Shown piece after piece: positions 28,201 through 31,200 of a stretch of DNA of 64,000 bases. Location: NCBI RefSeq assembly GCF_036507355.1, contig NZ_AP027877.1, one strand, 5' to 3'. A program made the position numbers. Source of the stretch: Escherichia coli (GTDB taxonomy: Bacteria; Pseudomonadota; Gammaproteobacteria; Enterobacterales; Enterobacteriaceae). Every line of letters begins with the position of its first letter. The first letter of the stretch is position 1.

Positions 28201-31200
28201 CCAACGCTGAAACGAGACAAGTATAATCGTACAAATTAGCGCCACAATTGTCACGATAACCCCGACGCCTGGATCTGTCATCGGTGTTGGAGATATCAGA
28301 TGTTGAATACCCGTCAAAAACAGGAATAGTGCTGAACCGGAGATAAACATACTTTGCGCCAGCGCCGCGAGGGACTCAGCTTTACCGTGACCAAACGAGT
28401 GATTATCGTCGGCAGGTTGCAGGGAATATCGCACCACCAGTAAATTCGTCAACGACGCGCCGATATCCACCAGCGAATCCACCAGCGCGGCGAGAATACT
28501 CACCGACCCGGTATACCACCATGCAAAAATTTTAATCAGCAATAGCAGCGAAGCCATCGCCGTCGCAGCAATCGCCGCCCGACTGACCAGCCGTCCATAA
28601 GATTGATTCATAAATACTCCCGCTATCAACTGACGCTAGTATAACGGAAGCAAATCATCTGCAATGCATTAAGCAGCAGGCAAATTGAGGATAAAAAAAA
28701 CCCCCACATCATGTGGGGGAAGACAGGGATGGTGTCACAAAAAAGCACCTAACCTGATGATATAAATGGATTTATGTCAACCGCTGTCCACATAGCGTCC
28801 ACATCGTTCAGCGTCCGTTTAATCGGACGCTTTTAAATTTTTATTTTTCCCAGCAGAAAAATTAGCTTTCCCGCTGTTTTGCAACTCAACAAGAGGAGAT
28901 AACCGTCGGTAAACAGCCAAAAGTATCTTTAACTGAACCAGTTCATCTGCCCCCGATAGTTGAACCAAGTTTTTACGTTGTTCTTCACTAAGTGCCATCA
29001 CAGATTCAAGTGATTTAACTGCGTCAGAAACAAGTTCAATCTCTTTAATTTGATTCTGTATACGCAGCTTCTCTGATTTCAACTTTGCCCATTCTCTTTG
29101 TCGATATGTACGCATCACCTGATCGTAAACTTTGTTGGCAGCCAGAATACTTCCACCAACAGCAGTAACTAACTCAGCAATCTGCCAAGAGATATCAATA
29201 AGAGCAGACAATTCAATAAAGCCAGGAGAGGCATACTGAATTTTTTTCACTACAGGACGTAAATCTGGTGGAGTCGCACTGTAAGCCCCTCTAAAAAAGT
29301 TCACCACACTGTGCCCACCCTCCCAAGGCATTGTTGAATATCCTCTTGATCCTCCTTTTAGGCGCTGAATTTACAATCCAAGTGCAACAAAAAAAGAAGT
29401 ACTCATCAACTAGAATATAATTTTGTTTCCACACAAAAACCACTTCCAAATGATGAGTACTTCCTACCGACATCTTACAATAAACGAGCGAGAAAAGATA
29501 ATGATTTTACTCGCACAGGGCAAAAAACAAGCAGAAATTGCCAAAGCACTGGGACGTAGCTCCAGCACCATTTCTCGCGAGCTGAAACGACACGCTCTAG
29601 AAAGCTACAGTGCAACGAACGCACAAAACAGCTATTTGAAGCATCGTCAAAATAGCAAAGCACAGCGCAAATTAGAGCAGCCTGAATATTTCAATTTGGT
29701 GCAAGAAAAGTTTCTGACAGAAAACTGGTCGCCCGAACAAATCAGCGCACGATTAAAATTGGAAAAATCTGAATTATCCATTAGTTATTCAACCATTTAT
29801 CGTGGTATTTATTCAGGGTTGTTTGATATAGGCGAACGCAAAGCCAGTCGCAAACTGCGCCACAAAGGCAAAACACGGCATACAAAAAATCATCATGAAA
29901 AACGTGGCAAAATTCAGATATCCAACCATTTGAACGACCGTCCCATTTCGGCGCAAAATCGCAGTCGCTTTGGACATTGGGAAGCCGATACCGTACTGGG
30001 TAAAGCGGGTGGAGCTTGTTTGCTGACGCTGACGGAACGCAAAAGTCGTTTTGAGTTGGTGAAGAAAATTCCTGCCAAAAAAGCCGAAGCAGTCCAAAAA
30101 GCCATGATTGAATTGCTGGATTCACATATATTGCGGTCAATTACGCCAGACCGTGGTAAAGAATTTGCCCAACATCGTTTGGTAACAGAAGCACTGGGTG
30201 TAGAATTTTACTTCCCCGAGCCGCATCAACCGTGGACACGGGGAACGAATGAAAATACAAATGGGTTACTTCGTGAATACTTTCCGAAGCACCAAGACAT
30301 CAATCAGTGGAGCGAAGTTGATATTCAACAGGTGATCAATAAACTGAATTTACGACCACGTAAATGTTTAGGTTGGAAAACACCTTATGAAGTTTACTTC
30401 AAAAAATCGTTGCACTTGGTTTGACAATTCAAGGCCATAAAAAAAACCATATAGCTGCAAATACTCTTTCGTTAAGACCGCGAAATCAGCTAACTCCCAA
30501 CGATTATCAAGCTCAATTATAACTTTTTCCATTTTCCACCAACCTGTCCAACTTTAAAGATTGACTTTTAAGTATATGATAAACATAGTTTATTAAACGT
30601 GATCCACTACTTTTAATGAAGAATATTCCCCAAAACAGAAAGCCCCTCGACTGAGGGGCTTTCTGTTTGTAATTACATCCACATAATTTGCTGCCCTGAC
30701 GGCAACGGGTGCGGTCTTACGGCGTGGACTTCTCCCGGCTTGTCCAGGGTAATGACATTTTCTTTGTTCATGGTTTTCTCACTTCTGAATCAGGGTTAAC
30801 CGGCCAGCCAGGCTGACCGGATGAAAATCACAGGCCGATATTGCGGCGGTGTTGCTCCAGCCGGTCGACGCCGTTCACCTTCTCAATCATGTTGATGGTG
30901 TCAATTTCGACCAGCTCCTTACCGTCCATCGTCAGCCGGAAATAACCCATTTTTCACCGGCACGAGCCTTCGGTTTGCAAGGATCACGCAATTCAATAAT
31001 TGGTAATTTATTTGCCTTCACCATTTCACTGACGGCTGTCTTTGGCTTCCCTAATAAATCAGCAAATTTATCCACATGAACCGCATCAAGCGGATACTGA
31101 ATCACATAATTTTCAGCGTCCATATATGGTACCCTCATAGGATCCAGCCCTTTCTAAACCACTCAAAACCGTTTAGACGCTGGTTTATTCTCAAATCAAT

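What the first reader, a model, noticed from the sequence alone, without database searches (positions are those of the whole stretch)
30673..30932. Two short ORF fragments downstream of the cox-like gene suggest decay of the prophage early operon
Seen on the minus strand: a ~33-aa ORF whose ATG overlaps the cox-like stop (MDGKELVEIDTINMIEKVNGVDRLEQHRRNIGL) and a 32-aa ORF 30673-30771 (MNKENVITLDKPGEVHAVRPHPLPSGQQIMWM) ending at the strong terminator. The cox-like protein is shorter than P2 Cox. Inference: frameshifts and truncation of the early region, consistent with a defective element. These could instead be genuine small phage proteins.
Basis: inference. Interest (0 to 1): 0.25.

Follow-up and report, generated by a model that had tools for sequence, protein, structure and literature searches.

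The report
Deletion scars in a P2 prophage remnant
The two short reading frames are not early-operon genes or small phage proteins. They are leftover ends of three late P2 genes (tail tube FII, tail chaperone E, activator Ogr), joined behind a truncated cox by two large deletions. This is ordinary prophage decay.

Summary
Both ORFs exist at the stated coordinates, with one small error: the 33-aa ORF's ATG lies 2 nt after the cox stop and does not overlap it.

They are not frameshifted early genes or small phage proteins.
- **ORF1** is the last 33-38 codons of the P2 tail-tube gene FII, 100% identical in protein.
- **ORF2** is an in-frame chimera of codons 1-10 of tail gene E and codons 51-72 of ogr. 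It ends at the terminator that P2's record annotates for ogr and the F operon.
- **cox** is cut cleanly after codon 60 of 90. There is no frame jump.

Compared with an intact prophage at the same cpxP-fieF site (E. coli 22AR0750), two deletions of 21,938 bp and 4,719 bp removed about 90% of the element. The junctions share only 1-2 nt.

What remains is attL, int, C, cox', the 270-bp scar, a 213-aa accessory gene split by an ISApl1-like element, and attR. The remnant keeps its integrase and repressor, so immunity is likely (inferred). It lacks the Cox C-terminal helices needed for function, all replication and virion genes, and the Ogr zinc finger.

This junction set appears in only one genome. 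Ordinary; low interest.

The parts
32720..32766 (.). attL-side copy of the 47-bp att repeat, 24-70 nt after the cpxP stop
   Evidence: Identical 47-bp direct repeat at 28690-28736 and 32720-32766. The same pair flanks the intact prophage in L005.
31623..32603 (+). P2-type integrase gene, intact (326 aa from the homologous start; the mechanical ORF begins at 31593)
   Evidence: Window 30944-32768 is 100% identical to L005 29176-31000 of the intact 22AR0750 prophage. Annotated as integrase in L003 and L005.
31260..31553 (+). C immunity repressor gene, intact (97 aa, HTH_3)
   Evidence: 100% nucleotide identity to the intact prophage. Pfam HTH_3 at 2.4e-5. Same protein, WP_016237179.1, is annotated in L001 and L005.
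31124..31259 (.). C-cox control region: early promoter (Pe)-like site TTGACA-18-TAAATT (31259->31230, minus strand) and CCTATATAGG repeats, probably operators
   Evidence: Promoter scan. The geometry matches P2 Pe, whose -35 abuts the C start codon. The operator role is inferred.
30945..31123 (-). cox' : codons 1-60 of a 90-codon cox. The frame then reads I-S-G and stops at 30934-30932, inside FII-derived DNA.
   Evidence: tblastn: Cox 1-60 at 100%, 2.2e-44, ending at 30944. Pfam Phage_Cox profile positions 7-57 of 87 only, against 7-87 for the intact protein.
30944..30944 (-). Junction 1, cox codon 60 joined to FII codon 135; one shared T; 21,938 bp missing
   Evidence: Three-way alignment at the junction. 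L005 7238-29175 is absent from the window.
30828..30944 (-). 'FII: last 38 codons plus stop of the tail-tube gene FII.
   Evidence: 99.0% nucleotide identity to P2 19257-19466. FII residues 135-172 at 100%, 8.7e-25. Pfam Phage_tube 129-165/165.
30772..30827 (-). Native FII-E intergenic spacer, carrying E's ribosome-binding region
   Evidence: Lies inside the 210-bp block that is colinear with P2 19257-19466.
30742..30771 (-).
   Evidence: Junction alignment. tblastn E residues 1-12, 2.4e-5.
30735..30741 (-). Junction 2, E codon 10/11 joined in frame to ogr codon 51. Crossover is within a shared AA (E has AATCCGG, ogr has AAGCCGG). 4,719 bp missing.
   Evidence: Alignment. L005 2310-7028 is absent from the window.
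30673..30741 (-). 'ogr: codons 51-72 plus stop (C-terminal part of ORF2), downstream of the zinc finger
   Evidence: tblastn Ogr 51-72 at 100%, 6.5e-16. Pfam Ogr_Delta covers Ogr residues 3-49 only. ORF2 has no Pfam or PHROG hit.
30639..30662 (-). Rho-independent terminator of ogr and the F operon (the full hairpin spans 30668-30633)
   Evidence: Aligns to P2 24265-24288, annotated as that terminator. Fold: -28.3 kcal/mol, z = -5.9.
30432..30532 (-). 5' part (about 34 codons) of the 213-aa accessory gene between the ogr terminator and attR
   Evidence: 100% identical to L005 2000-2309. The uninterrupted gene is WP_000416606.1 in L001 and L005.
29364..30431 (+). ISApl1-family (IS30-like) insertion sequence splitting the accessory gene
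   Evidence: 99.9% identical to an element annotated 'IS30-like element ISApl1 family transposase' on plasmid NZ_CP024128.1. Absent from L001 and L005. Ends and flanks shown.
28819..29363 (-). 3' part of the 213-aa accessory gene (PD-T4-10_B-like)
   Evidence: Colinear with L005 1459-2003. PADLOC PD-T4-10_B at 1.3e-34.
28690..28736 (.). attR-side copy of the 47-bp att repeat, upstream of fieF

Best explanation
The interval 30673-30944 is a non-functional scar inside a P2-like (Peduovirus) prophage remnant integrated between cpxP and fieF. Two illegitimate deletions, or one complex event, with 1-2 nt of shared sequence at the junctions, removed 21.9 kb and 4.7 kb. The first runs from cox codon 61, through the replication, head, lysis and tail genes, to FII codon 134. 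The second runs from E codon 11, through T, U and D, to ogr codon 50. A 210-bp island survives between them, holding the FII 3' end, the FII-E spacer and the E start, fused to the last 22 codons of ogr and its terminator. ORF1 is the orphaned FII tail. ORF2 is an accidental in-frame E'-'Ogr fusion that keeps E's ribosome-binding site. Shown: the homologies, breakpoints and deletion sizes, and the intact int and C genes. Inferred: the scar is transcribed only as a read-through of cox' from the early promoter Pe when C repression lifts, and ends at the ogr terminator. Inferred: neither peptide has a function. Inferred: the remnant still makes C and Int, so it may give immunity against phages of the same immunity type, but it is locked in the chromosome. 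Cox' lacks the C-terminal helices needed for oligomerisation and excision, and no replication, virion or late-activator function remains.
For:: the interval splits into a block 100% identical to C/cox of P2-like phages and a block 99% identical to P2 FII/E (19257-19466); colinear blocks against P2, the T22 P2-like phage and the intact 22AR0750 prophage. Deletions correspond to L005 7238-29175 and 2310-7028. The retained int-C-cox' block and the ogr-tail/accessory-gene block are 100% identical to that prophage; base-level junction alignments and translations. Cox 1-60, FII 135-172, E 1-12 and Ogr 51-72 each align in a single frame; no early protein other than Cox matches. Pfam places ORF1 at Phage_tube 129-165/165 and Cox' at 7-57/87. 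The Ogr zinc finger (residues 3-49) and the E chaperone domain (7-85) lie almost wholly outside the retained pieces; the terminator is P2's annotated ogr/F-operon terminator. (PMC3936717): Cox C-terminal helices alpha3-alpha4 drive oligomerisation, and the R73A/R78A, W81A and W84A mutants lose function; exact ORF2 is absent from about 15 billion proteins; exact Cox' and the 40-aa ORF1 each occur in one genome; none of 5,426 complete E. coli genomes has these junctions. (PMC3032704): cpxP-fieF is a known P2-like integration site.
Against: Nothing in the sequence contradicts this reading. Expression and lack of function of the two peptides are inferred, not measured. The FII/E island is 97.1% identical to the 22AR0750 prophage but 99.0% to P2, so the direct ancestor had a slightly different tail module and was not itself recovered. 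The order and number of deletion events cannot be determined. Immunity conferred by C was not tested, and the repressor promoter Pc was not located by the simple promoter scan.
Confidence: 0.93

Rival explanations
1. One reading: the early operon (cox, orf78, B ...) is still present downstream of cox but has decayed by frameshifts and point truncations, and the two ORFs are its fragments.
For: cox is short, and the ORFs follow it on the same strand in different frames.
Against: tblastn with Orf78-like, B and Orf80 proteins from both P2 and the matching intact prophage gives no significant match in any frame. Cox residues 61-90 are absent rather than shifted. The DNA after 30944 is 99% identical to P2 FII/E and 98% to the ogr 3' end.
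Confidence: 0.01
2. The ORFs are genuine small phage proteins, for example accessory genes or regulators of the early region.
For: ORF2 has a plausible ribosome-binding site and a terminator. Small genes such as orf78 do follow cox in P2.
Against: Each ORF is 100% identical only to the end of a larger protein. ORF2 is a chimera of two unrelated genes and is not found in about 15 billion proteins. ORF1 and Cox' are private to one genome. ORF2 has no Pfam or PHROG family. Intact relatives have full-length FII, E and ogr instead.
Confidence: 0.02
3. Assembly artefact: a collapsed or mis-joined assembly of one or more P2-like prophages created false junctions.
For: Similar P2-like prophages are known to cause collapsed assemblies, as in E. 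coli W (PMC3032704). Two junctions lie within 210 bp.
Against: The proteins map to a 4.64-Mb single-contig chromosome. Both junctions sit between correctly oriented att repeats, in the order expected for simple deletions. An analogous compact remnant with a different junction exists in two other complete genomes. No other P2 sequence is present in the 64-kb window.
Confidence: 0.03
4. Domesticated minimal module: the deletions were selected because int, C and the accessory gene give the host immunity or defence, and the scar is a by-product.
For: int and C are 100% identical to those of an intact prophage. An independent deletion in PSS-08-1 and GZ2408P keeps the same int-C and accessory-gene ends. 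The accessory gene resembles a defence toxin.
Against: Only 2 of 5,426 complete genomes carry a compact remnant. In the window the accessory gene is itself destroyed by an IS. Identity of 100% to an intact relative indicates a recent event, with too little time for selection to show.
Confidence: 0.12

Closest known systems
Bacteriophage P2 and P2-like (Peduovirus) prophages, e.g. the intact prophage of E. coli 22AR0750 at cpxP-fieF and Wphi1 of E. coli W at the same site
   Same: Same integration site, att repeats and gene order (int, C, cox ... FII, E ... ogr, terminator). Identity is 97-100% in every retained block.
   Different: 26.66 kb of about 29.67 kb is missing. cox, FII, E and ogr survive only as fragments. 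An IS element is inserted in the accessory gene.
Cryptic P2 remnant of E. coli K-12 (ogr-D' at the cyaR site, listed in PMC3032704)
   Same: A P2-like prophage reduced by deletion to a few hundred or thousand bases at its attachment site and unable to produce phage.
   Different: K-12 keeps the ogr-D' end. This remnant keeps the int-C-cox' end plus only the last 22 codons of ogr, sits at a different att site, and shows two internal junctions.
Compact remnant in E. coli PSS-08-1 and GZ2408P (L001)
   Same: Same prophage type and site, and the same retained int, C, accessory gene and att repeats.
   Different: A single deletion joins the cox start region to ogr codon ~6, with TAT shared at the junction. 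There is no cox', no FII/E island and no IS. Neither structure can be derived from the other, so the events were independent.

Membership tests
P2-like (Peduovirus) prophage, defective remnant | Flanking direct att repeats at a known P2-like integration site | tested here: met
   47-bp repeats at 28690-28736 and 32720-32766, identical to those flanking the intact prophage. cpxP-fieF is listed as a P2-type site in PMC3032704.
P2-like (Peduovirus) prophage, defective remnant | P2-type int-C / cox divergent switch region | tested here: met
   100% identical to intact P2-like prophages and phages. Pfam Phage_Cox and HTH_3.
P2-like (Peduovirus) prophage, defective remnant | Loss of genes essential for replication, virion assembly and late activation | tested here: met
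   L005 7238-29175 and 2310-7028 are absent. No other P2 sequence occurs in the window.
Cox family (PF10743) excisionase/repressor | N-terminal winged helix-turn-helix | tested here: met
   Profile positions 7-57 of 87 matched, 7.8e-14.
Cox family (PF10743) excisionase/repressor | C-terminal helices alpha3-alpha4 that mediate oligomerisation and are required for activity | tested here: not met
   The protein ends at residue 60 of 90, followed by ISG. The intact homologue covers profile 7-87. The requirement comes from PMC3936717.
Phage tail tube protein FII (PF04985) | Full-length tube domain (about 165 profile positions) | tested here: not met
   Only profile positions 129-165 are present, i.e. 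FII residues 135-172.
Ogr/Delta zinc-finger late activators (PF04606) | Zinc-finger domain with four cysteines (Ogr residues 3-49) | tested here: not met
   ORF2 holds only Ogr residues 51-72, has no cysteine and no Pfam hit.
Tail assembly chaperone E / E+E' (PF10109) | Chaperone domain (E residues 7-85) and the -1 frameshift site | tested here: not met
   Only codons 1-10 remain. The frameshift site at P2 19685 lies in the deleted DNA.
P2 early-operon small proteins (Orf78, B, Orf80) | Sequence similarity in any frame downstream of cox | tested here: not met
   No significant tblastn match, using permissive settings, for either the P2 or the cognate prophage versions.

The most novel reading that the evidence does not exclude
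The compact remnant, with int and C intact and an accessory gene originally next to attR, may be a selected minimal immunity/defence module that arose independently at least twice at cpxP-fieF. On this reading the ogr-attR slot, which holds a solo PD-T4-10B-like gene, would be a third and so far undescribed cargo or defence position in P2-like prophages. The two short ORFs would still be meaningless scars.
Probability: 0.1. Interest if true: 0.3.

Novelty: already known. Interest (0 to 1): 0.07.

Why it matters
It matters little beyond correct annotation. The two 'hypothetical proteins' called here in the source genome (BED24381.1 and BED24382.1) should be labelled as pseudogene fragments of FII and cox. 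The 32-aa ORF is an E'-'ogr fusion artefact. The case is a clean, base-resolved example of how a P2-like prophage collapses by microhomology-poor deletions. It also shows that short ORFs beside a truncated phage gene can come from distant late genes rather than from local frameshifts.

Tried and rejected
- **Frameshift test.** tblastn of early proteins showed no frame jumps and no early-gene remnants.
- **Other genomes.** No complete E. coli genome has the same junction set. ORF2 is absent from the protein collection. Cox' and ORF1 each occur in one genome. The look-up for a contig encoding exact Cox' returned nothing.
- **Terminator scan.** It missed the ogr terminator, probably because the maximal stem uses up part of the T run. 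Folding and P2's own annotation confirm it.
- **Rfam scan of the locus.** Only sub-threshold Hrs1 matches at the two att copies; not pursued.
- **The 213-aa accessory protein.** No Pfam or PHROG family and no match in 50,697 phage records. The only hit is PADLOC PD-T4-10_B.
- **Ogr literature.** The search gave nothing usable, so the zinc-finger argument rests on Pfam domain limits and the sequence itself.
- **Expensive searches.** Large protein-database and structure searches were not used, because near-identical annotated references already answered the question.

Full report
**Observation**

On the minus strand the window contains three short ORFs in a row.
- A cox-like ORF starts at 31138, or at 31123 for the homologous start, and stops at 30934-30932.
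- A 33-aa ORF runs 30929->30828. The mechanical ORF in that frame starts at 30950 and is 40 aa.
- A 32-aa ORF runs 30771->30673.

The only error is that the ATG of the 33-aa ORF starts 2 nt after the cox stop (TGAcgATG) and does not overlap it. A strong hairpin follows at 30668-30633 (-28.3 kcal/mol, z = -5.9). ORFs of this length are common by chance: 77 ORFs of at least 25 aa overlap the surrounding 6 kb. Their existence alone therefore means little, and the homology carries the argument.

**What the DNA is**

A blastn search against phage records split the interval at 30944.
- Upstream of 30944, the C gene and the first 180 nt of cox are 100% identical to P2-like phages such as NC_041848.
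- Positions 30944-30735 are 99.0% identical to P2 19257-19466. That stretch covers the 3' end of tail-tube gene FII, the FII-E spacer and the start of tail gene E.
- Positions 30741-30639 are 98% identical to P2 24186-24288. That stretch covers the last third of ogr and the element P2's record annotates as the 'rho-independent terminator for ogr transcript and F operon'.

Junction alignments give the breakpoints.
- Junction 1 joins cox codon 60 to FII codon 135 with one shared T. The cox frame then reads I-S-G-stop in FII-derived DNA.
- Junction 2 joins E codon 10/11 to ogr codon 51 within a shared AA (E has AATCCGG, ogr has AAGCCGG). The join happens to be in frame.

ORF1 is therefore the orphaned C-terminus of FII. 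Its residues 135-172 are 100% identical to P2 FII, and Pfam places it at Phage_tube 129-165/165. ORF2 is E(1-10)::Ogr(51-72).

I ran tblastn with the early proteins of P2 and of the cognate intact prophage against 30560-31260, using permissive settings.
- Cox aligns over residues 1-60 in one frame at 100%.
- Residues 61-90 match in no frame.
- Orf78-like, B and Orf80 have no significant match.

There is no frameshift decay of the early operon. The early operon beyond cox codon 60 is simply absent.

**The whole element**

The window region 28690-32766 is bounded by identical 47-bp repeats. It lies between fieF and cpxP, a site already listed for P2-like prophages (Wphi1 of E. coli W; PMC3032704).

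E. coli 22AR0750 carries an apparently intact 29.67-kb prophage of the same type at the same site. Against it:
- Window 30944-32768 (attL, int, C, cox') is 100% identical.
- Window 30432-30741 (ogr tail, terminator, start of a 213-aa gene) is 100% identical.
- The FII/E island is 97.1% identical.
- L005 7238-29175 (21,938 bp) and L005 2310-7028 (4,719 bp) are missing.

No other P2 sequence occurs in the 64-kb window. About 3.0 kb of phage DNA remains, plus a 1,068-bp ISApl1-family IS30-like element at 29364-30431. That element splits the 213-aa gene lying between the ogr terminator and attR.

**What the remnant can and cannot do**

Shown:
- int and C are intact and identical to those of an intact prophage.
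- Cox' keeps the winged helix-turn-helix (Pfam profile 7-57 of 87) but lacks the rest. The intact homologue covers 7-87.
- The Ogr zinc-finger domain covers residues 3-49, so the retained residues 51-72 lie wholly outside it and contain no cysteine.
- The E chaperone domain covers residues 7-85, and only residues 1-10 remain.

From the literature (PMC3936717), the C-terminal helices alpha3-alpha4 of P2 Cox drive oligomerisation, and the R73A/R78A, W81A and W84A mutants are inactive.

Inferred:
- Cox' cannot promote excision, so the remnant is locked in place.
- The scar is transcribed only as read-through from the early promoter Pe. A Pe-like site, TTGACA-18-TAAATT, sits at 31259-31230 in the same position relative to C as in P2. 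Transcription ends at the ogr terminator.
- The two peptides have no function.
- C may still give immunity to phages of the same immunity type.

**Distribution**

No complete RefSeq E. coli genome (5,426) carries the junction set in one place. The exact 63-aa Cox' and the 40-aa ORF1 occur in a single 4.64-Mb E. coli chromosome, as BED24382.1 and BED24381.1 with adjacent locus tags VEE46_41500 and VEE46_41490. Both are annotated 'hypothetical protein'. The exact ORF2 is in no record. That genome is probably the source of the window.

Two other genomes, PSS-08-1 and GZ2408P, carry a different compact remnant of the same prophage. In them the cox start region is joined to ogr codon ~6, with TAT shared at the junction. 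Neither structure can be derived from the other, so the deletions were independent. Compact remnants are still rare: 2 of 5,426 genomes.

**Comparison and verdict**

This is a defective P2-like prophage remnant. Remnants of this kind are long known, for example the ogr-D' remnant of K-12 listed in PMC3032704. The alternative of genuine small proteins also fails.

Remaining rivals are weak.
- Assembly artefact is unlikely given a single-contig chromosome, the correct order between att repeats, and analogous remnants in other complete genomes.
- Selection for a minimal immunity/defence module is possible, but support is limited to two independent events, and here the accessory gene is itself broken by an IS.

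Novelty: already known in kind. Interest is low.

Noticed in passing
window 28819-29363 + 30432-30532 (minus strand); intact copy at L005 1459-2100 and L001 3518-4159: A 213-aa accessory gene (WP_000416606.1) sits between the ogr terminator and attR of this prophage type. It has no Pfam or PHROG family and no match in 50,697 phage records. It matches PADLOC PD-T4-10_B, the toxin of a toxin-antitoxin-like abortive-infection system (PMC9519451), at 1.3e-34. No partner 'A' gene is nearby. The ogr-attR position is not one of the two P2 defence hotspots named in that paper.
   Followed up: partly
window 29364-30431: An ISApl1-family (IS30-like) element, 99.9% identical to a plasmid copy (NZ_CP024128.1), is inserted in the accessory gene after about codon 34. 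The flanks are compatible with a 2-bp GC duplication. It is the only copy in the window. ISApl1 is the element associated with mcr-1 mobilisation (from my own knowledge). No mcr-1 was looked for.
   Followed up: partly
L001 3140-3215 (E. coli PSS-08-1; also GZ2408P): An independent single deletion of the same prophage joins the cox start region to ogr codon ~6, with TAT shared at the junction. It leaves an 'ogrK' CDS that lacks the first zinc-finger cysteine and sits directly behind the early promoter. Only 2 of 5,426 complete genomes have such a compact remnant.
   Followed up: partly
window 32720-32766 and 28690-28736: The 47-bp att repeat lies 24-70 nt after the cpxP stop, within the cpxP 3' UTR that gives rise to the CpxQ sRNA (PMC4817254). 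Integration therefore duplicates part of that region. Rfam gives only sub-threshold Hrs1 matches on the plus strand at both copies (44.5 and 31.8 bits against a gathering score of 56.4).
   Followed up: no
window 31190-31250: Two CCTATATAGG motifs lie between C and cox. One is part of a 20-nt perfect palindrome, TGGAACCTATATAGGTTCCA, which the terminator scan flagged. They are probably operators of this immunity type rather than a terminator.
   Followed up: no
window 30735-30944 versus L005 7029-7237 and P2 19257-19466: The FII/E island is closer to reference P2 (99.0%) than to the 22AR0750 prophage (97.1%), although every other retained block is 100% identical to 22AR0750. The direct ancestor was therefore a mosaic with a different tail module.
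   Followed up: no
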